The position numbers were made by a program, and so were the translations under genes. From positions 11,646 through 75,153 of the forward strand of contig BLSG01000125.1 of NCBI GenBank assembly GCA_012862495.1: a stretch of DNA of 63,508 nucleotides, read 5' to 3'. This stretch comes from Thraustochytrium aureum. Its lineage: Eukaryota. Each line of letters opens with the position of its first letter. Within the stretch, counting starts at the first letter, position 1. The notes beneath the pieces were generated by a model, which saw only the letters and a program-made list of their open reading frames with translations, had not been told where the DNA came from and made no database searches. This document shows positions 14,897-55,945 of the stretch, in pieces.

Positions 14897-16714
14897 CTAA
14901 CCAGTCTTCTGCTTCTTGGCGTCCGGCTGGCCGTTGGCGGCAGCCCCCTTGCCGCCCACGACGGCGGCCACGTCACTGTAGGCCGAGTTGTGCACACCGC
15001 TCACAGCGCGGCCAGAGTTGTCGCCGCCGACAGCAGAGGCCAGCCGCTTAAACTCCTCGTCCCACTCGATCGCCGCCGAGGTGGAGCAGGCAATGGACGG
15101 GCCGCCGAGCACGGTCGTGCGCGCCGACTCGCCCGGGAAGTGCTGCTCAAAGATGACGCGGTACCGGTACCCCTCCTTGGTGGCCGGCGTGTTGTAGCGG
15201 AAGCGGTTCTTGCGGTTGGCCCACTGGAGGTCGGAGACCTCAGTCTCGGCAGTGGCGCGGAGCTGGTCGATCCACGAGTAGCCCACGCCGTCGGAGAACT
15301 GCTCCTTTTGGCGCCAGAGCACCTCCTCGGGCAGGTACGGGTTTTCCGGGGTGTCGAAGGCCTTGCGCATGATGAACTTTTCGATTGAGCCGCGGTTCTC
15401 GTCGCCGGCGCGCACCTTGCACATCTTGTGCTCGGGATCAATGTTCATGACGTACTCGAGAAAGTCCTTGTCCAGGAACGGGACGCGGGGCTCGACGCCG
15501 AACGAGGACATGGCCTTGTTGGCGCGGAGGCAGTCAAAGTAGTGCAGGTTGTCAAGCTTGGTGACGGTCTCCTTCTGCATCTCGGCCGGGCTCGGGCACT
15601 TGTGGAAATAGAGGTAGCCGCCGAGCGCCTCGTCGGCGCCCTCGCCAGAGAGCACCATCTTGACGCCGAGCGCCTTAATCTTGCGCGCCATGAGGAACAT
15701 GGGCGTAGCAGCACGGATCGTGGTGATGTCGTACGTCTCCAGGTGGAAGATCACGTCGCTGATGGCGTCCAGGCCCTCCTGGACCGTGAAGGTGAAGCCG
15801 TGGTGGCTGGTGCCCAAGAAGGTGGCCACCTTTTGGGCGGCCGCGAGGTCGGGCGAGCCCTCGAGCCCGATGGAGAACGAGTGCATCTTGGGCCAGTCCT
15901 TCATCTCCTTGGCGTGGCGCGCCGCCACGGAGGAGACGAGCGACGAGTCGAGGCCGCCCGAGAGGAGCACGCCCCACGGCACGTCGCTCATCATGCGCTT
16001 GACCACGGCGCGCTCAAAGCGCTGGCGCAGCTCGATGAGCTCAAGCGGCTGCGAGGGGATGCGCGAGATGTCCTTCCAGAGGGGCATGTACCAGGGGGTG
16101 AGCTCGCGCGTGGCCGAGCTGAAGAAGTGGCCCGGCTTGAACAGCTCGAAGCGCTCGCAGAGGTCGATCAGGCCCTTCATCTCGCTGCAGATGACCGTGC
16201 CGCCGTCCGCGCGGTAGCCGATGTACAGCGGGACGATGCCCATGTGGTCGCGCGCGGCGAAGAATTGCCTGTTGGCCTTGTCGAAAAGCACAAAGGCGAA
16301 CATGCCGTCCAGCTTGTCCACCATTGCAGTGCCGTACTTTTGGAACAGCGGGAGGATCACCTCGCAGTCCGAGTGTGTCTTGAAGTTGTACGTGCCCTCG
16401 AACTCCTTGCGGATGTCCATGTGGTTGTAGATCTCGCCGTTCGCGGACAGCACCACGGTGTCGTCCTCGCTGTGCAGGGGCTGGGCGCCCGACTCGGGGT
16501 CGACAATGGCGAGGCGCTCGTGCGCGAGAATGGCCAGCGTGGTCTGCTCCCCGTTGGCGCCCTCGAGCGTGCCATGATCCTCAGAGACGTACGTGTACAC
16601 CCCAGACCAATCAGGACCCCTGTGCCTGATCACCTTCGCGCTCTTGAGCACCTCGGCGCGCGCCTCGGACTCGCTCAGCTCGCCCGCGTCGAACAGGGCC
16701 AGAATCCCGCACAT
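14897..16714 (-). CDS. asnB: Glutamine-dependent asparagine synthetase B
   Basis: MCGI start, IRHRGPDWSG, HERLAIVDP, NGEIYNH, LLSGGLDSSL, ETYDITTIRA, SGEGADE, RVPFLDK, WRQKEQFSDGVG; intact ORF. Confidence 0.97.
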   Translation of the reverse strand: MCGILALFDAGELSESEARAEVLKSAKVIRHRGPDWSGVYTYVSEDHGTLEGANGEQTTLAILAHERLAIVDPESGAQPLHSEDDTVVLSANGEIYNHMDIRKEFEGTYNFKTHSDCEVILPLFQKYGTAMVDKLDGMFAFVLFDKANRQFFAARDHMGIVPLYIGYRADGGTVICSEMKGLIDLCERFELFKPGHFFSSATRELTPWYMPLWKDISRIPSQPLELIELRQRFERAVVKRMMSDVPWGVLLSGGLDSSLVSSVAARHAKEMKDWPKMHSFSIGLEGSPDLAAAQKVATFLGTSHHGFTFTVQEGLDAISDVIFHLETYDITTIRAATPMFLMARKIKALGVKMVLSGEGADEALGGYLYFHKCPSPAEMQKETVTKLDNLHYFDCLRANKAMSSFGVEPRVPFLDKDFLEYVMNIDPEHKMCKVRAGDENRGSIEKFIMRKAFDTPENPYLPEEVLWRQKEQFSDGVGYSWIDQLRATAETEVSDLQWANRKNRFRYNTPATKEGYRYRVIFEQHFPGESARTTVLGGPSIACSTSAAIEWDEEFKRLASAVGGDNSGRAVSGVHNSAYSDVAAVVGGKGAAANGQPDAKKQKTG

Positions 16715-17355: not shown

Positions 17356-18950
17356 ATGGGCGCCGTAGCGAGCTCCGCACCGGTCGCCAAACAAGAGCTG
17401 CGCCAAGCGCAAAGGCACACCGCGGCACGGAGCAGAAGCGCGGCAACGTTGCCGACAGCTGACTCTGGTCGGCGGTCGCCGTGCTCGTGCTGTGCCAACA
17501 CACTGCAAGCGCCGAGCTCGTCGTGTTTGGAGAATCAACCAACCAAACCGAACCGCAAAACTCTGTTTGACAGCGTTGTCGTGTCGATCGGGAAATGGGG
17601 CGTCCAGGAGGTCAGTGTTGCAGGCCTCGCGGTTCAGCTGCTTCGAGAAGAAGATGTTCCGCAGTACTGCGAGTGCCAACGCGCGTTTCTGGAAAGGGGC
17701 GAGCCGCCCTGCCCGAGCCTACTGGAAAGGTACCGCGACTCGATCACAATTGTCGCCCCGGCCGCTTTCACGGCGCTATCTAGTTGCGGCAGCACGATGC
17801 CGGATCGGCTCTGGTTCCGCTGCAAGCAGCTGGGCGGAATCGTTGTCCTTGTCAAAGTCTACGGAGACGGCTTCGGCTTGCACTACTTTCGCAACGAAAG
17901 GAACAATTACGAAGACATATACGCGGTCGACCCGGGCGCTAAAAGCTGCGTGGAGCTGGAAGCGAGGGACTCCGCCCCCTGCAAGCGTGGGCCAGCGGCC
18001 ACCGCTTTGACGGCCAACGCACGCTCGGGAACCTCACCGTTCAACCGAACCCGTTCATGGTCGCTTACAGCAGCATTGCCGTTTTGATTGGCTTCAACGT
18101 GGTCCTCGCGGCTTCGTTCCTCGCGGTCTCAGGGCTCGCAGGGTACTACTTTGTCGTTCGACACACTTCGCGGGGCATCTTTGATTGGACCCATCGCGTT
18201 GTTCTCCTATCCACCTTCTTGACCATGACCGTCAACGGCTGCGTCATGGCAATCAACGGAGTAGGAAACACCAGGGTTTTGAACGCGCGGACCAGCCAGG
18301 CCTTTGTCAACGGCTTCTTCGGAACGTCCGTGGCAAACAACCTGTTCATCGCCTCGCTTTACTCGCGCCTCATCGGGGGCACGCCGGGTGAAATGGAGAG
18401 CTCAAAATCGGCCGTAACCGTTGCAGTCGAGGTATTCGCTCTTGTGATGATGTTGTCAGATATCGCCATCGTCGCTTTTTGGGCCAGCGTGGAGCTCGAC
18501 TCCTCCGTCGGGTCTGGCCTGATCTTCATTACCTTTAGTTTCTACGCTACTGTGCAGTTGTGCGCGACAGCATACCTCACTTTTGCAACTTGGCGGCTCG
18601 TCAGAGCGCTCCGCTCCACGGCGAAAGAGAGTGAGAGTTCGTCGGTGAACACAGCCTTCACGTCGCACATTCGGGAAGCCAAGCAAAAGCTCATGTCTGC
18701 GTTGGTGCAATGGGCGATTCTTCTTTGCATCGCAGCAGGCGTGCAGATTCTTTGCGGTGCCATTATACTGTTCGTTCAAGCTTTCGTCGAAAGTCCCGCT
18801 GTCAACCTGATGGTGTATTCGCTGACCTACAGCTCGAGGTTTCTTACGGCGCTCTGCCAATGCAAGTTTTGCAGCCCTCGCCCAACGCCCAAGGTAGTGG
18901 TGCCCTATGCAAACCTGAGCCCGAGCTCGAAGGCTGTCTCGGTATACTAG
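17356..18950 (+). CDS. Membrane protein with a soluble N-terminal domain and about 6-7 TM helices (receptor-like); two ORFs probably joined by an indel; start uncertain
   Basis: ORF 18057-18950 is strongly multi-TM and its frame is open back to about 17943. Removing one C from the run near 17975 joins it to ORF 17356-18087 (..ARDSAP-LQAWASGHRFDG..PNPFMVAYSS..). Confidence 0.55.
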
Positions 18951-19714
18951 AGCTCTTGAGCTAGCTCGAGCTAGTAGGGGCGTTGAAAGCTGACTGGGCC
19001 CCAGCAAATGCGCGAACCGCTCGATGTCCCACCAGTGCCAAACGCAAAGGACTTTTGAACTATTTGGGAGCCAGAAAGAGATCGTGTGAGGTTTGGTTGA
19101 CTCAATCCACCGCCCAGGTTGATCTGCGGCATCTGGCTACCTTCGATTCGCAGTCGAGCTCTGGCCCCCATGGGGCTGGCCTGGGCCCTCTCCAGCAAGC
19201 CGCCCTCGTGGGGCAGCGAGACGTCCCTGTTGGTGCTGCCTGGCCTAGGTTNNNNNNNNNNNNNNNNNNNNNNNNNNNNNNNNNNNNNNNNNNNNNNNNN
19301 NNNNNNNNNNNNNNNNNNNNNNNNNNNNNNNNNNNNNNNNNNNNNNNNNNNNNNNNNNNNNNNNNNNNNNNNNNNNNNNNNNNNNNNNNNNNNNNNNNNN
19401 NNNNNNNNNNNNNNNNNNNNNNNNNNNNNNNNNNNNNNNNNNNNNNNNNNNNNNNNNNNNNNNNNNNNNNNNNNNNNNNNNNNNNNNNNNNNNNNNNNNN
19501 NNNNNNNNNNNNNNNNNNNNNNNNNNNNNNNNNNNNNNNNNNNNNNNNNNNNNNNNNNNNNNNNNNNNNNNNNNNNNNNNNNNNNNNNNNNNNNNNNNNN
19601 NNNNNNNNNNNNNNNNNNNNNNNNNNNNNNNNNNNNNNNNNNNNNNNNNNNNNNNNNNNNNNNNNNNNNNNNNNNNNNNNNNNNNNNNNNNNNNNNNNNN
19701 NNNNNNNNNNNNNN

Positions 19715-19870
19715 CATTTGGTGGCTTTCCCCGAACAAGGTCTAGCGACTCTTCGTATTTGCCCTACGCGCGGGTTTCCTGAACGCAAGCGCCTGCTCGT
19801 AGAACGGCAACGCCTCGTCGAACTTTTTTCTTTGACGTGGCAGCCGTTGTTGTAAACAGTAAGGTGCTCT
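19715..19870 (-). pseudogene. Degenerate TPR-repeat fragment (kinesin-light-chain-like TPR)
   Basis: Across shifting frames the minus strand reads STLTVYNN..KKFDEALPFYEQALAFRK..GKYEESLDL. No intact ORF; abuts a gap. Confidence 0.4.
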
Positions 19871-19873
19871 ACT

Positions 19874-22854
19874 CTACTCTACCACAAGTGGTGAGCAGGT
19901 CTTTCGAATGGCGCGCGCGGCAAGGCCACTGACGAAAGCCGCCCGCCCCGCGTTTCCCGCCAGGAGTGCCTTGCGAATCCCACCAAACCTGACGTTTCCG
20001 CACTCAGCGCCTTCCGTAGTCGTCTCGGCGTGAAGGTCTTCTGAAGGCCACTCGCCGTGCGCGGGGTCGAACTCGGGGTGCGCGCCGCATAGAACTGCTC
20101 GTCCACCGAGGGCCATGTCGCACTGCACAGCAGCCAAGGACTGGTCGTGCGCGTAACGAGCCAAAGCCGTCACGTTGTCGGGTAGGCCAGAGGGCTCCAA
20201 GAACCTGCACCCTCCATTGAAATACGCCGCAACCGTGGCCTCGCAGAGCGGAAACTCGCGGAGGAACTCAGGCTCGACGCGCAAGCGTACGGCCCACGCC
20301 CCCTCCGGCGAGGCGTATCGAAACCCAGGCAATGCTGGCCCCTGCGCAACGCCCGCGTAAAACTCCAGCCTGCGCGGCTCGCAGACTTGCAGCGGCCCAC
20401 CCTTGTCAAACTCAATCGAGCTGCATCCAAAGTAGCCCCCTGCGCAAAACCCGAGGTACCCGCCACCCCGGGGCCCGCAGACGAACTCGCGAATGCGCGC
20501 CTGGCCCAAGTCCCCAAGTGCCTTGCACATTGGAATGTCCGCGCCCCCGGGCATCACAAGCAGCTCGCACGTCTCTTCCCAGTTGATGGCCGGGTCGGCG
20601 AGGTGCTCTGGCCTCGCCGCTCTCACCAGGGCATGGCGGCAGGCCGGTGCAGTCGAAAGCGAATGCACAGCCATCTCGACACAGCGCGCGTCAGCACCAG
20701 GGCCGCAGTACACGAGCACTTGCGGCCCAGAGAGAAGCCGCAGGGAGCAGTCCGAGCTGCCAACCCGAACCGACGGCGCACTGTTCTGCAAAGCGAGCTC
20801 GCCGGCATGGCGGAACGCCTCTGGAAGGGCTGCCGGCAGCGGGCCGTCCACGACGAGCTCGCCTGTCGGCTCAACTGCTCGCGCGACGCCCACAAACGGT
20901 ACGGCAACGTCGACGGGTGCGCCGCTGGCATCGACGAGGCGAACGCTCGGTTGGCCGCGCTTGCTGTCGACCAGGACCGCCCGGCCCGCCAAAGCATCGA
21001 GAGGGGGCAGCAAGGCGCCGCAGATGTGCTCGGCGCTGAAACTGGCGAGGCGCTCGAGCCCTGCGCAGACGCGCGCGACAATCTCCTCCCGTATCGACAC
21101 CAGCGAGGCGCGCTTGCCAATAGCGGCGAGCTCGTGCGCCACGGAGGTCGCTTGCGCGTCATCAGCAAATTGTTCGTGGACGTTGATGCCGATCCCGACC
21201 ATGGCAAGCTTGGACCCGGCCGTCTGCTCGACAAGCATCCCGAAACCTTGCGACCAAGCTGCCCTGCTAGTACATCGTTTGGCCACTTGACTTTGGCAGA
21301 CGCGAGGCCGACGCCGCGGAGCGCTTCGCAGACGGCGACCGGGGCGGCCAACGCGAGGGAGGCGTTGGCTTGGACCAGAACGGTCATGTAGATGTTGCCC
21401 TTTGCGTCGCTCTTCCATTCCCGGCCGCCGCGCCCGCGCCCTTTGACCTGCGACTCTGCGAGGAAGAGTGCCCCGAGCGGGGCGCCTTGGTCGAGCTCCC
21501 GAGCTGCGTCGGTCATCGTCGACTCGGTCACTTGGCGGTACGTCAGAAAGCGGCCGAGACTCGCTGCCCCGTGAGCGTCAAGCTTGCGTTGAAACAAGGC
21601 GCCGTCAAACGACCTGAGCTGCTCGCCCAAAGGAGCGCTCAGACCCACCGGGGCAGGCTCTTTCGTGGGGAGGGCGCTTGGCCCCAGGCCATCCCCGTGA
21701 GGCTCGATGAGCACAGCACCGGTTGATTCGTCGATGGATGCAACTGTGCCGGCGGCCTCAGCGCGCACGACGAGACGCGTTTTGACCGTGTCCACATACG
21801 CTAGCACCTCGCCGCGGTCAACTTGGTTTCCCAGAGCTGTGCAGATGGACACGCCGTTCGACGTTGTGCGGGCTTGCACGCCGGCGGCAAGGTCGCTCGG
21901 CAGGCCGACCCGCTCTCGCTCAACGAGCTCGCCGAGTGGGGTGGTTGAGAACGAGACGAGCTCAAACATGTCGTCGCCTGCCGCGCCAACCGCAAGGGCG
22001 GTGCCAGCAGCTGCCGGTGCCCCGAGACGAGCGAGCTTGGCAGCTTCGTGGGCGCTCAGCACGCACGCCGTGAAAAGCTCTGGCGCCCGCGCTTTGCTGT
22101 ATCGCTCCAGTGCTCGCGCAACGATCCCGGGCTCTTCGCATGCAGCGAGGACCGGGGCGAGGTGGTCGGCGAGGACAACGGCGTCTTGCAGGGCCAAGTT
22201 GGCGCCCAGCCCTAAGAAGGGCAGCCTGGTTGACGCGGCGTCCCCAAGAAGGACGCAGTTGCCGCGCGCCAGCGACCGCGACGCTACAGTTCGCAGCGGC
22301 TCCGGGTCGCTAAAGAGACAGTCGTCGGCCTCCGGAATGTGCGCGCCCAGCCCGAGCCTGTCGTGCACCACTTGTCTGAGCGCTTGCGCGTCGCCCAAGG
22401 TCTGCGGCGGCGCGTATACGCTCAGGTCGAGCCCGCCTCCCTGCCTTGGGAGCCCGAGAGCGAACGCGGCTCCGCTCGCCCCGGAAGAGGGCGCCGCCCA
22501 AATCCTCAGTCGCGTTCCGGCTTCCGCGCTCGCACAGGCCGCGTGAACATACGACATGCCGAATCGCGCCGCCAGAACGGCAGGTCCCCCCTCCTGCAAG
22601 AGATCCCACTCTCGCGGTTCGCCAGCCAATTCGGATGGCCTGCCGAAAAGCTTTTCCCGCGCAGCCGAGTTGGTCCCGTCAGCGGCGACAACCACCGCGT
22701 ACTTTTGCGCGAGGACCTCGACGTCTGCGTCCAGGTGCCCGAAGCAGACCTCTACGCCAGCCCTTCGGCAGGCATCGAGCAGCGCTCGGATGAGCACAGC
22801 GCGCCTCACAGCGAGGAGCTTGCCGAGCGTGTACTCCTTGGCGACACCGCCGTC
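19874..22854 (-). CDS. Fusion protein: FAD-dependent monooxygenase + lipoyl/biotinyl-like domain + biotin-protein ligase catalytic domain + C-terminal BPL_N (GATase-like) domain; 5' end in gap
   Basis: FAD monooxygenase motifs VVAADGTNSAAR and LLGDAA..PFLGLGANLALQD. Lipoyl-like GNQVDRGEVLAYVDTVKTRLVVRAEAAGTV. BirA-type motifs TESTM..AESQVKGRGRGGREWKS..GNIYMT..KWPNDV..RKVSG(MLVE)..VGIGINV. BPL_N motifs VLVYCGPGA..LVMPGGADIP..GGYLGFCAGGYFG..AHPEF. One indel at the G-run near 21240. Confidence 0.85.
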
Positions 22855-23323
22855 NNNNNNNNNNNNNNNNNNNNNNNNNNNNNNNNNNNNNNNNNNNNNN
22901 NNNNNNNNNNNNNNNNNNNNNNNNNNNNNNNNNNNNNNNNNNNNNNNNNNNNNNNNNNNNNNNNNNNNNNNNNNNNNNNNNNNNNNNNNNNNNNNNNNNN
23001 NNNNNNNNNNNNNNNNNNNNNNNNNNNNNNNNNNNNNNNNNNNNNNNNNNNNNNNNNNNNNNNNNNNNNNNNNNNNNNNNNNNNNNNNNNNNNNNNNNNN
23101 NNNNNNNNNNNNNNNNNNNNNNNNNNNNNNNNNNNNNNNNNNNNNNNNNNNNNNNNNNNNNNNNNNNNNNNNNNNNNNNNNNNNNNNNNNNNNNNNNNNN
23201 NNNNNNNNNNNNNNNNNNNNNNNNNNNNNNNNNNNNNNNNNNNNNNNNNNNNNNNNNNNNNNNNNNNNNNNNNNNNNNNNNNNNNNNNNNNNNNNNNNNN
23301 NNNNNNNNNNNNNNNNNNNNNNN

Positions 23324-23526
23324 TCACCAACGTGGGCGCTATGCGACTGTATGAGAACCTTGGCTTTTACCGTGACAAGCGACTCAGCAAGTACTACTTG
23401 AACGGGGTCGACGCGTTTCGCCTCAAGCTGTGGCTGAAAGATGTGGACGCTGCGCCGGGCAGCCCCGCAGACGATGCGAGCGCCGCGGCTGGCTCGCAGG
23501 GCGACGCGGAAGGTCCGAGTTCATGA
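23324..23526 (+). CDS. NAA30: N-alpha-acetyltransferase 30 (NatC catalytic subunit, Mak3), C-terminal fragment
   Basis: [37 protein letters not shown] is the characteristic Naa30/Mak3 C-terminus; the rest lies in the gap. Confidence 0.88.
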
Positions 23527-25328: not shown

Positions 25329-25805
25329 ACAGATCAGATCAGAACAGACCAGGACCGGAGCAGACCGGATCGCGCAGGAGCCAAGACCAGATCGCGCAGG
25401 AGCTGACCAGACCAGACCAGCTCAGCTCAGCTCAGCTCGCGCAGGAGCTGGCCAGACCAGACCAGACCAGCTCAGCTCAGCTCGCGCAGGAGCTGACCAG
25501 ACCAGACCAAGACCAGAAGAGACCAGACCAGAGCAGAGTTGACCAAGACCAGAGCAGAGTAGATCGCGCAGGAGCAGACCAGACAAGACCAGACGAGATC
25601 AGACCTGACGAGATCAGACTAGACGAGATCAGAGCAGAGTACTTCGACCAAGACCAGACCAGAGCAGATCGCGCAGGAGCAGACCAGACAAGACCAGACG
25701 AGATCAGTCTCTAGCTAGCTAGACGAGATCAGACGTTCTACTCAAGCTAGAGAGAGACGAGATCAGACTCTAGAGCGAGACGAGACCAGACCAGACGAGC
25801 TCAGT
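25329..25805 (+). repeat. Degenerate pentamer-based satellite (ACCAG/AGATC/AGCTC units) with higher-order repeats
   Basis: agaccagacc, agctcagctc and agacgagatc blocks. The unit agatcgcgcaggagcagaccagacaagaccagacgagatcag occurs at about 25561 and 25666. Confidence 0.85.
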
Positions 25806-26856: not shown

Positions 26857-27775
26857 GCCCTTGAAGAAAGCGCCGGGCCGGTAGAGCGCTTTCTTGAGCG
26901 ACATGTACAGGTGGTAGTTGAGCTTTTTGTTCTGCGCGACGTCGTCGCGGACGGCGGGGAAGAGGACCAGGGCGTAGAACCGCTGCGCCATTTTCTGGTT
27001 GAGGTTGGAGGCGAAAAGCCGCGTCGCGGCCAACATGGCCTGCGGCGACCAGCGGTCCGGGTCGGTGTGATAGAGGACCTCCTCCCAGTTGCGGAGGGCA
27101 GGGATGATCTTGAAGGCCTTTGGCACTTTGCCGGAGCGGTACCGGCCCATCAGTTTGCCGATGCTGCGGTATACCTCGATAAGCTGCTGATTGAGCCCCG
27201 GCACCCGGCGCTCTTCGCTCCTGCCGGCCGAGTCGCCTCCCTGCTTGCCAGCAGCCGCGGCCTCCTTGGCCTTGATCTTTTCCATAATGATGTCAGCCAA
27301 CGTGCGGCGCTCGGGCTTGTTCTTGTTCATGAACGCCTCCAGCGCGCGCTCGTCCTCTTGCAGGACCTCGAGCTGCGCAAATTGGTCCTGGTTGAGGTAC
27401 TCGATCTCGAGCTCCTCCTCCTCCTCCGCTTCGTCGTCGTCGTCGATGCCGGACCCGTCGCCACCGTCGCTGAGCATGGCCTCTGAATTGCCGCCAGCCG
27501 CGTTGCGCTTGTTTCGCGTCAGCCTTTTCGCGCTCCTCGCGCTCCTCCTCGAGCTGCTCGCGCGCGAACGAGAGGATCTTGCGGCTCATGTCGCTGGGGA
27601 CCACGCCTTCGCGGTCGGCCTCTTCGGCGTCATTGCGCTCCTTGCGGAATGCTTTGGCTCGTTTCTTCGTGCGTTCCTGCGCGTGGAGTTTGTCGTCGTC
27701 TTTGCGCAGCTGCGTCTCGAGCGGGTCGAGCCGCTCCGCCTTGCCCACCCCGCGGGTGCTCTTCACTTTCGGCAT
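26857..27775 (-). CDS. BYSL: Bystin/Enp1 (40S biogenesis factor), 3' end in gap
   Basis: MSRKILSFAREQ..RRTLADIIMEKI..YRSGKVPKAFKIIP..WSPQAMLAATRLFASNL..AQRFY..KKLNYHLYMSLKKALYRPGAFFKG; indel near 27512. Confidence 0.93.
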
Positions 27776-54562: not shown

Positions 54563-55945
54563 ATGGGCGGCAACAGCTCCAAGAAGGGCGGCGAGAGCCT
54601 CCAGGAACGCGTCGTCCTCGTAACGACCAACTGCGACGAGGTCGAAGGGTACCCGGACAAGACCGGCAACTGGCTCGAGGAGCTGGCCGCGCCCTACTTT
54701 GCTTTCTCGGAGGCCGGCTATGATGTCGTGGTCGCCAGCACCAAGGGCGGCCACATCCCGATCGACGAGAAGAGCAAGTCCAACGACTTTGCCTTCGAGG
54801 CGTCCAAGCGCTTCCTCGCGGAAAAGGCAAGCGTGCTCGAGGAGACCGTGGCGCTCGCCAGCCTCACCGCGACAGGCGTCCGCTGCGTCTTTCTCGTGGG
54901 TGGGCACGGCGTGTACGGCGACTTTGCCAACAACGCTCGACTGCAGGCACTCGTCCAGCGCGTCGCCCAGCAAGGCGGCGTGATCGCGAGTGTGTGCCAC
55001 GGCCAGGTCGGCTTGGTTGGCCTTCCGCTCATCAAGGACAAGCGCCTAACCTCGTTCACGAACGCTGAAGAGGACAAGATGGGCCTCAAAGACAAGGTCC
55101 CGTTCTTGCTGCAGGACAAGCTCGCCGAGAGCGGCGCCAAGTTTGAGGAGAAGGACCCCTTCTCGGTCCACGTAGTAGCCGACGGCAGGCTCGTAACGGG
55201 ACAGAACAACTTTAGCCCCACTGCGGTGGCGGACAAGGCGATTGAAATCCTCAAGGCGACCGACCGCGTGCTCCTGCTGGTCACCAGCGAGTCGGAGGTC
55301 CCTGGCTACTTTCGCCCAACGGGGTCGTGGCTCGAGGAGGTCGCCGCGCCGTACTATGTCTTCGCAAACGCGGGGATGGACGTTCAGATTGTGAGCACGC
55401 GCGGCGGGACCGCGCCGATCGACCCGAACAGCAGGCAGCCCGACTTTTATTGGGACGCCGGCAAGCGCTTTGACGCGGACCACGCTGCGCTCGGCAAGCT
55501 CAACTCGACGGTTCCGGCGTCGCACGCCCTGGCGCTCCTGGACAAGACGGTCAAGGCCGTCTTTGTTGTGGGCGGGCATGGTGGGTACGCCGACATGGAG
55601 GAGTTTGCGCCGCTCTTGCGCAAGGCTGCCGAGCTCGGTGCCTACGTCTGCGCCGTCTGCCATGGGCCGCTTGCCTTCAAGTGGACCCCAGAGCTGGTGA
55701 AGGGCAAGAAGGCGACGGGCTTCACTAATGAGGAGGAGACTCAAGTCGCCGCTGCCGAGCTCGTGCCGTTTTTGATCCAGGACGAGCTGACGAGCCTTGG
55801 GGCAACATTTTCGTGCGGTGCAGCCTGGACCGAGGGCGTTGTAGAGGATGGCAAGCTCGTAACTGGACAGAACAACTTTTCTGCCGGCGCAGTGGCCAAC
55901 AAGGTGCTTGAAAAGCTCAAGCAGGAGCGCGAGGCGGAGCAGTAA
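54563..55945 (+). CDS. Tandem two-domain DJ-1/PfpI (Hsp31/glyoxalase III-like) protein with an N-myristoylation motif
   Basis: Two repeats, each with TGxWLEE.AAPY, VGGHG, VCHG, FTNxEE, VPFL.QD.L and DG.LVTGQN. N-terminus MGGNSSKK. Confidence 0.93.
   Translation: MGGNSSKKGGESLQERVVLVTTNCDEVEGYPDKTGNWLEELAAPYFAFSEAGYDVVVASTKGGHIPIDEKSKSNDFAFEASKRFLAEKASVLEETVALASLTATGVRCVFLVGGHGVYGDFANNARLQALVQRVAQQGGVIASVCHGQVGLVGLPLIKDKRLTSFTNAEEDKMGLKDKVPFLLQDKLAESGAKFEEKDPFSVHVVADGRLVTGQNNFSPTAVADKAIEILKATDRVLLLVTSESEVPGYFRPTGSWLEEVAAPYYVFANAGMDVQIVSTRGGTAPIDPNSRQPDFYWDAGKRFDADHAALGKLNSTVPASHALALLDKTVKAVFVVGGHGGYADMEEFAPLLRKAAELGAYVCAVCHGPLAFKWTPELVKGKKATGFTNEEETQVAAAELVPFLIQDELTSLGATFSCGAAWTEGVVEDGKLVTGQNNFSAGAVANKVLEKLKQEREAEQ

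What the first reader, a model, noticed from the sequence alone, without database searches (positions are those of the whole stretch)
19874..22854. Four-domain fusion: flavin monooxygenase + lipoyl/biotinyl carrier-like domain + biotin ligase with BPL_N moved to the C-terminus
Seen in sequence: one uninterrupted frame runs from FAD-monooxygenase motifs (AADGTNS, LLGDAA..PFLGLGANLALQD), through a lipoyl-like beta-hairpin (GEVLAYVDTVKT, Lys at 21781-21783), into a BirA-type core (GRGRGGREW, KWPND). After a single-G indel it continues into a BPL_N/GATase-like domain (PGGAD, GFCAGGY). Established: fungal Bpl1 and animal HCS carry BPL_N before the catalytic core, so the order here is reversed, and I know of no biotin ligase fused to a monooxygenase. 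Inference: this could be a self-contained system that adenylates biotin or a related acid, loads it on its own carrier Lys and oxidises it. Alternatively the monooxygenase is a degenerate passenger, since the usual GDAAH His is Ser. The carrier motif DTVK matches neither AMKM (biotinyl) nor ETDK (lipoyl) exactly. This is the best candidate for an undescribed system in the window.
Basis: partly seen in the sequence, partly recalled or inferred. Interest (0 to 1): 0.85.

Follow-up and report, generated by a model that had tools for sequence, protein, structure and literature searches.

The report
Biotin ligase with own carrier, oxygenase
One gene joins a flavin oxygenase, a biotin-carrier-like domain, a biotin ligase and an amidase-like domain, the same four-part protein recurs in marine protists and a brachiopod, and it likely works as a small assembly line that would load an acid onto itself, oxidise it and release it.

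Summary
The fusion is real. All four public runs laid on the gene carry one extra base at 21241, which restores a single frame. The same order (monooxygenase, carrier, ligase, BPL_N) occurs in seven distinct intact proteins of 1022-1477 aa, including Mucochytrium, Sphaeroforma, Creolimax and Lingula.

The monooxygenase derives from kynurenine 3-monooxygenase (KMO; Z 39). It keeps its FAD motifs but has lost KMO's carboxylate clamp throughout the family: Arg84 in 7 of 7, Tyr404 to Phe in 9 of 9. The carrier lysine is invariant and aligns with biotinyl lysines. The ligase keeps its biotin/ATP motifs, and BPL_N keeps Cys-His-Glu.

Trees favour separate recruitment of BPL_N over a permuted fungal ligase, but do not prove it.

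Most likely mechanism (inferred, about 0.42): load biotin or a similar acid on the own lysine, oxidise it while tethered, release it. No activity was tested, the carrier fold is low-confidence, and the window's N-terminus lies in an N run. Five targeted paper searches found no description.

The parts
19874..22854 (-). Readable part of the fused gene (about 995 codons plus stop); 5' end hidden in the N run
   Evidence: colinear with P0003 (37-39% identity) and Mucochytrium P0168 (34-35%)
21919..22854 (-). KMO-derived flavin monooxygenase domain (window residues 1-312, N-terminus missing); DG motif 22675-22686, GD motif 22231-22245; Glu270 and Phe297 at the places of KMO Asn369 and Tyr404
   Evidence: Pfam FAD_binding_3; KMO is the top PDB match by sequence and by fold of the homologue model; residue map
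21709..21888 (-). Biotinyl/lipoyl-type carrier domain, motif D-T-V-K-x10-G
   Evidence: NCBIfam PRK05889 E 1.4e-6 over positions 2-61 of 71, below its cut-off; weak PDB matches led by biotinyl domains; motif in 9 of 9 family rows
21781..21783 (-). Lys358, predicted attachment site
   Evidence: aligns with the biotinyl Lys of propionyl-CoA carboxylase and BCCP; invariant in 9 of 9
20744..21612 (-). BirA-type ligase core with C-terminal cap (ESTM, Q-x2-GRGRGGREW, KWPND, KVSG)
   Evidence: homologue model matches M. tuberculosis BirA, Z 28.7, rmsd 2.4, 246 aligned
21241..21242 (-). One base missing in the window (Ser wobble position); most likely an assembly error
   Evidence: present in 4 of 4 runs; other one-base slips nearby
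19877..20722 (-). BPL_N / class I glutamine-amidotransferase-like domain; Cys 20444-20446, His 20078-20080, Glu 20072-20074
   Evidence: Pfam BPL_N 7.7e-58; triad motifs in 10 of 10 fusion rows; motif positions
22855..23323 (.). N run that hides the start codon, GxGxxG and the position of KMO Arg84
   Evidence: homologues have about 90-110 more residues before the window's first residue

Best explanation
This gene encodes one conserved four-domain protein that likely acts as a self-contained, carrier-tethered oxidation line: the BirA-type domain would adenylate biotin or a close acid and attach it to the protein's own carrier lysine, the KMO-derived flavin domain would oxidise the tethered group, and the Cys-His-Glu domain would cut the amide to release the product. 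Shown: single gene, domain order, conserved ligase motifs, invariant carrier lysine, intact FAD motifs in homologues, loss of KMO's carboxylate-binding residues, intact triad. Inferred: self-loading, the identity of the acid, that the monooxygenase acts on the tethered group, and that BPL_N is the release step.
For: Order FMO-carrier-ligase-BPL_N in 16 of 289 proteins examined, which are 7 distinct sequences once the 10 members of the P0004 cluster are collapsed. Named sources are Mucochytrium, Lingula, Sphaeroforma and Creolimax. All four domains are similarly conserved: 30, 36, 35 and 36% mean identity. Carrier motif [ED]xxK-x10-G in 9 of 9; carrier differences between the window and the runs are 6 synonymous to 1 replacement. 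In P. fluorescens KMO, Arg84, Tyr98, Asn369 and Tyr404 bind the substrate carboxylate (PMC6376250, passage). Here Arg84 is Val, Phe or Tyr in 7 of 7, Asn369 is lost in 9 of 9 (Glu in 5) and Tyr404 is Phe in 9 of 9. That is what a substrate with its carboxyl tied up as an amide would need. No carboxylase domain is present that could use the carrier in the usual way. A precedent for a ligase with a dedicated carrier beside flavin oxidoreductases is the LplA2/GcvH-L operon (PMC4518038, passages).
Against: No activity was measured. Loss of the carboxylate clamp fits a free substrate without a carboxylate equally well; Asn369 to Glu could bind an amine. A Tyr98-like residue seems retained in most members (by eye). 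The carrier lacks the Met-Lys-Met of usual biotinyl domains (motif recalled), is short in Lingula, and is the weakest part of the model (10-residue blocks 41-77 pLDDT, under 50 around the lysine). Yeast BPL_N keeps the triad yet showed no glutaminase activity and is thought to recognise protein substrates (PMC12582158, Discussion part 1); the triad is also kept in most class III and stand-alone copies, so it does not single out a release role. The three opisthokont members have Met where BirA has the biotin-contacting Gln (role recalled), so biotin may not be the shared cargo. Within-species differences in the monooxygenase part (3 synonymous, 4 replacement) are too few to show constraint. KMO-type enzymes usually hydroxylate aromatic rings (recalled), which biotin lacks.
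Confidence: 0.42

Rival explanations
1. Biotin-gated enzyme: the ligase biotinylates its own carrier, and that state switches a monooxygenase that acts on a free, carboxylate-lacking aromatic amine. The carrier is a sensor or store, not a substrate holder.
For: Asn369 to Glu in 5 of 9 and loss of Arg84 suit an amine substrate. The KMO fold is kept to its C-terminal region (367 residues aligned). The window keeps all ligase motifs checked.
Against: No evidence for regulation was found. It leaves the intact triad domain without a role unless that domain removes the biotin.
Confidence: 0.25
2. Housekeeping biotin ligase that recruited BPL_N for substrate recognition, as class III did, and carries an unrelated monooxygenase and a decoy carrier only for co-expression.
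For: Ligase core and cap are complete. BPL_N helps substrate recognition in yeast and human enzymes (PMC12582158, Introduction part 1). birA-like and BPL_N genes are neighbours in 5 of 80 bacterial loci, once in this order (L103).
Against: The four domains stay together from stramenopiles to opisthokonts at about 30% identity, with the carrier lysine invariant. Animals normally have a separate holocarboxylase synthetase (Trichoplax example, PMC3641634, passage). Whether these organisms have a second ligase could not be checked (no genome held).
Confidence: 0.2
3. The carrier is lipoylated or octanoylated by another ligase and serves a redox role with the flavin domain, as GcvH-L does.
For: DSVKT, EAVKT and DTVKT fit the Ex2Kx10G lipoylation motif quoted in PMC4518038. 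H proteins and E2 domains appear among the weak matches.
Against: The fused ligase is BirA-type (TIGR00121 above cut-off for P0003 and P0004). The best carrier matches are biotinyl domains, which share the same spacing.
Confidence: 0.1
4. Artefact: neighbouring genes or a pseudogene joined by assembly or annotation.
For: The window has a frameshift and N runs; no single laid piece spans the gene.
Against: Four runs restore the frame, and pieces bridge each domain junction. Seven independent intact homologues exist. Differences are 23 synonymous to 14 replacement against an expected synonymous share of 0.26 (p 5e-6).
Confidence: 0.02

Closest known systems
Class III biotin protein ligase (yeast Bpl1, human holocarboxylase synthetase)
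   Same: BPL_N/GATase-like domain with Cys-His-Glu plus BirA-type core and cap in one chain
   Different: Order reversed; extra carrier and monooxygenase; core groups apart from class III in trees; BPL_N falls in a separate clade
Class I biotin protein ligase (P. horikoshii, M. tuberculosis; unnamed stand-alone relatives P0053, P0063, P0116, P0119, P0132, P0159, P0164)
   Same: Catalytic core and cap, Z 28; nearest tree neighbours (89/89)
   Different: Those are single-module proteins of 226-325 aa without carrier, oxygenase or BPL_N
Kynurenine 3-monooxygenase (P. fluorescens 5y66, rat 6lkd)
   Same: Top match by sequence and fold (Z 39.1, rmsd 2.8, 367 aligned); GxGxxG, DG and GD motifs kept in homologues
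   Different: Arg84, Asn369 and Tyr404 replaced family-wide; fused to a carrier and ligase
LplA2 / GcvH-L / SirTM operon with luciferase-like monooxygenase and old yellow enzyme (PMC4518038, PMC12440151)
   Same: Cofactor ligase with a dedicated lysine carrier linked to flavin oxidoreductases, outside the usual metabolic complex
   Different: Lipoate, separate bacterial proteins, other flavoenzyme families, ADP-ribosylation control; none of these here
NRPS-type adenylation-thiolation-oxidation-release modules (recalled)
   Same: Proposed logic: activate, tether, modify, release
   Different: No shared domains; here the link would be a lysine amide made by a BirA fold, not a phosphopantetheine thioester

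Membership tests
Biotin protein ligase (BirA-type) | GRGR..W loop, KWPND, KxxG lysine, catalytic fold with C-terminal cap | tested here: met
Biotin protein ligase (BirA-type) | ATP-dependent biotinylation of a lysine | not testable with these tools
   needs an assay
Class III biotin protein ligase | BPL_N extension N-terminal to the catalytic domain | tested here: not met
   BPL_N is C-terminal in the window and in all intact homologues
Class III biotin protein ligase | Core descends from the class III clade | tested here: inconclusive
   best tree separates them, but AU p 0.126 does not reject the grouping
Kynurenine 3-monooxygenase | KMO fold and FAD motifs | tested here: met
   GxGxxG seen only in homologues (hidden by the N run in the window)
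Kynurenine 3-monooxygenase | Carboxylate-binding Arg84, Asn369, Tyr404 | tested here: not met
   0 of 7, 0 of 9 and 0 of 9 keep them; Arg84 site unreadable in the window itself
Biotinyl/lipoyl carrier domain | [ED]xxK-x10-G with the lysine at a beta-hairpin tip | tested here: met
   9 of 9; Lys436 of the homologue model lies between strands 428-434 and 437-442, at low pLDDT
Biotinyl/lipoyl carrier domain | Complete barrel-sandwich fold; score above curated cut-off | tested here: inconclusive
   Pfam 23.2 bits in P0003 (cut-off 22.1), 17.7-20.6 in five others; the domain was not folded and searched alone
Canonical biotinyl domain of carboxylases | Met-Lys-Met motif (recalled) and a carboxylase partner domain | tested here: not met
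   0 of 9 have MKM; no carboxylase domain in the chain
BPL_N / class I glutamine amidotransferase-like | Nucleophile Cys in GxCxG and His-x-Glu | tested here: met
   10 of 10 fusion rows
BPL_N / class I glutamine amidotransferase-like | Amide hydrolysis activity | not testable with these tools
   yeast domain inactive on glutamine in vitro (PMC12582158)

The most novel reading that the evidence does not exclude
A one-chain biosynthetic or degradative assembly line built from biotin machinery: a BirA fold loads an acid on a biotinyl-type lysine, a re-tooled KMO oxidises it while tethered, and BPL_N releases it. It would be the first use of a biotinyl domain for oxidation rather than carboxyl transfer, shared by marine stramenopiles, ichthyosporeans and an animal, and it would give the long-unexplained BPL_N triad a real substrate (acyl-lysine).
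Probability: 0.4. Interest if true: 0.92.

Novelty: categorically new. Interest (0 to 1): 0.82.

Why it matters
Biotin ligases are described in three classes (PMC12582158), and biotinyl domains are known as CO2 carriers of carboxylases; this protein fits neither picture. Each part belongs to a known family, but the combination is conserved across two eukaryotic supergroups and sits in databases as 'uncharacterized' or 'hypothetical'. It would reveal a new biotin-linked oxidative pathway or biotin sensor in marine eukaryotes. It also offers a direct test of an open question: the role of the GATase-like domain of yeast and human ligases, where biotin-unresponsive disease mutations map (PMC12582158). 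Here enzyme, carrier and triad domain lie in one expressible chain.

Tried and rejected
No whole genome is held, so a second ligase in this organism could not be sought. Single-sequence fold of P0003 failed (pLDDT 32). A 108-row alignment was misaligned (two family members at 14-15%) and was not used. The metagenome scan covered 8 of 64 parts and kept 80 of 328 loci, all generic monooxygenases; none held the carrier-ligase part. The prokaryote scan covered 24 of 64 parts and kept 80 of 325 BPL_N loci: 0 of 80 had a monooxygenase match, 5 a ligase, 2 a carrier-like domain. The last word-indexed search returned only single-domain proteins among the 120 listed of 370, although it is known to miss family members. 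ESM Atlas gave no usable hit for P0003 or for the Lingula carrier. No RNA holder is on record; X2-X4 are only guessed to be RNA, and X3 and X4 also cover parts of a presumed silent stretch, so I draw nothing on expression from them. The complex predictor was not available, so carrier-to-monooxygenase docking is untested. A careful BPL_N tree did not finish; FastTree was used. No C-terminal peroxisomal signal or long N-terminal presequence was seen in the 7 full-length homologues by eye. Rfam found nothing in the window. Earlier scan notes held nothing relevant. Paper searches found no description of the fusion; searches did not yield a source on tolerance of non-Met residues beside the lysine. 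Subscription journals and supplements were not searched.

Full report
Observation. On the minus strand, one frame runs 541 codons from the edge of an N run (22854) through monooxygenase motifs, a carrier-like segment and the first half of a BirA-type core. A second frame finishes the core and encodes BPL_N to a stop at 19874-19876. Pfam supports all four domains, the carrier just under its cut-off. All 4 of 4 public runs laid on 19720-22850 carry one more base behind 21241; it is G in two and A in two on the plus strand, that is, two synonymous Ser codons, so the frame is open in each. These runs come from two studies, and one may be the source of the window. Single pieces bridge monooxygenase-carrier-ligase (21563-22055), carrier-indel-ligase (21037-21822) and ligase-BPL_N (20153-20783); none spans the whole gene. 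A control stretch showed four other one-base indels between the window and X1. Of 37 base differences inside the gene, 23 are synonymous, against an expected share of 0.26 (p 5e-6; pN/pS 0.22; low-depth contigs may add errors).

Family. Searches found P0003 (1055 aa, 37-39% identical, colinear with both frames) and the P0004 cluster of 19. A profile search of 1.84 billion representatives listed its best 150 and added further members. With domain profiles built from the family alignment, 16 of 289 proteins held had the order monooxygenase-carrier-ligase-BPL_N; collapsing the 10 members of the P0004 cluster leaves 7 distinct sequences, with P0021 and P0022 as partial ones; 89 had the usual BPL_N-ligase order. 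Named sources are Mucochytrium quahogii (a 1022-aa product of one transcript; a second transcript gives the two halves), Lingula anatina, Sphaeroforma arctica and Creolimax fragrantissima. The window groups with Mucochytrium and P0003 in both domain trees, so its organism is probably a labyrinthulomycete (inference).

Origin. BPL_N domains of the 10 fusion rows fall in one 24-row clade with 14 unnamed stand-alone copies, apart from 40 class III rows (of those held; FastTree, support 95). The ligase cores group with 7 unnamed stand-alone class I ligases (89/89), with class III outside (32 rows chosen from the 80). AU tests reject neither a single fusion clade (p 0.32) nor fusion plus class III (p 0.126). 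Lingula and the two ichthyosporeans form one branch (96/91), which fits old vertical descent with many losses, but transfer among marine eukaryotes is not excluded; such transfers are reported for true KMO genes (PMC4217691, passages). The sample is biased towards hits of the fusion profile.

Monooxygenase. KMO is the top match by sequence for P0003's, P0004's and Lingula's N-terminal domain and by fold for a model of the Mucochytrium protein (mean pLDDT 82, pTM 0.54, 30-row alignment; Z 39.1, rmsd 2.8, 367 aligned). GxGxxG, DG and GD motifs are present in 7 of 7 full-length homologues; His of GDAAH is kept in 5. Mean identity is 30% with 35 invariant positions, close to the ligase (35%, 37) and BPL_N (36%, 38). 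P. fluorescens KMO binds the kynurenine carboxylate with Arg84, Tyr98, Asn369 and Tyr404 (PMC6376250, passage). Mapped through the printed alignments and the family alignment, Arg84 is Val, Phe or Tyr in 7 of 7, Asn369 is lost in 9 of 9 and Tyr404 is Phe in 9 of 9; the Tyr98 column is ambiguous. So it is not a KMO, and the change is uniform rather than decay.

Carrier. The window segment matches PRK05889 at E 1.4e-6, and 8 further biotinyl-type and 3 lipoyl-type models more weakly (12 listed). Its lysine aligns with the biotinyl lysine of solved domains at weak E-values (0.03-0.5). [ED]xxK-x10-G is present in 9 of 9 rows, none with MKM. The same spacing is the lipoylation motif of GcvH-L (PMC4518038, passage), so sequence cannot name the cargo. 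In the model the lysine lies at a hairpin turn, but confidence there is under 50 and the domain was not searched alone.

Ligase and BPL_N. The window keeps ST, Q-x2-GRGR, W, KWPND and KxSG. The Gln is kept in 7 of 10 fusion rows and 29 of 29 bacterial BirA rows, but is Met in the three opisthokont members (the role of these residues in biotin binding is recalled from E. coli BirA). Cys and His-x-Glu are present in 10 of 10 fusion rows, but also in 85 and 77 of 89 class III rows. The yeast domain has no assigned function and no glutaminase activity in vitro (PMC12582158; abstract and first parts of Introduction and Discussion read). Stand-alone BPL_N genes occur in bacteria and Trichoplax (PMC3641634, passages).

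Mechanism. I favour a load-oxidise-release line (0.42). A ligase beside its own acceptor lysine, no carboxylase in the chain, an oxygenase that has shed its carboxylate clamp, and a cysteine hydrolase fold at the end all fit a substrate tethered by its carboxyl. Every catalytic step is inferred. A biotin-gated oxygenase acting on a free amine (0.25), a housekeeping ligase with passengers (0.2) and a lipoylated redox carrier (0.1) remain open; artefact is 0.02. The nearest described logic is the LplA2/GcvH-L operon (PMC4518038 passages; PMC12440151 abstract only).

Novelty. Searches pairing the domain names, the organisms and five accession or locus names found no description (search listings only). 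A review of ligase and carboxylase architectures (PMC3199775, passages) showed nothing like it in the passages seen. Subscription journals and supplements were not covered, and the architecture may be listed without comment in a domain survey. Each domain is from a known family; the combination fits no ligase class and fails the KMO test. Interest 0.82.

Noticed in passing
window 23326-23526 (+): 3' end of a gene that looks like the NAA30/MAK3 N-acetyltransferase (label recalled; no Pfam hit on this 66-aa piece). It runs away from the fusion gene, so both 5' ends must lie in the 469-base N run, which seems too short: the gap length is probably an estimate.
   Followed up: no
L103:263-1727: Holosporaceae locus with a biotin ligase gene directly followed by a BPL_N gene on the same strand, the order seen in the fusion; its ligase is not close to the fusion's in the tree (long branch).
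   Followed up: partly
P0026, P0027, P0032; L144:4746-8172: Proteins of about 1000 aa with BPL_N followed by two ligase domains, and a gammaproteobacterial locus with two BPL_N copies, one fused to a ligase: further unusual ligase architectures.
   Followed up: no
P0118, P0142, P0149, P0163: Unnamed stand-alone BPL_N proteins that group with the Lingula fusion domain (support 83); possibly relics of, or donors to, the fusion in other animals.
   Followed up: no
window 19123-19251: Multi-copy element: run depth rises from about 5 to several hundred or more, with many loose ends.
   Followed up: no
window 17974: Runs X1 and X3 have one more base here, upstream of the 297-aa membrane-protein-like ORF at 18057-18950; its true start may lie further 5'.
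   Followed up: no
window 25357-25791: Imperfect GACCA-type tandem repeats (periods 5, 45 and 105) between two genes.
   Followed up: no
window 14900-16714, 26857-27477, 54563-55942: Neighbours are ordinary intron-free eukaryotic genes (asparagine synthase, bystin, a tandem DJ-1/PfpI protein); among the 22 ORFs scanned no carboxylase or biotin gene was seen.
   Followed up: partly
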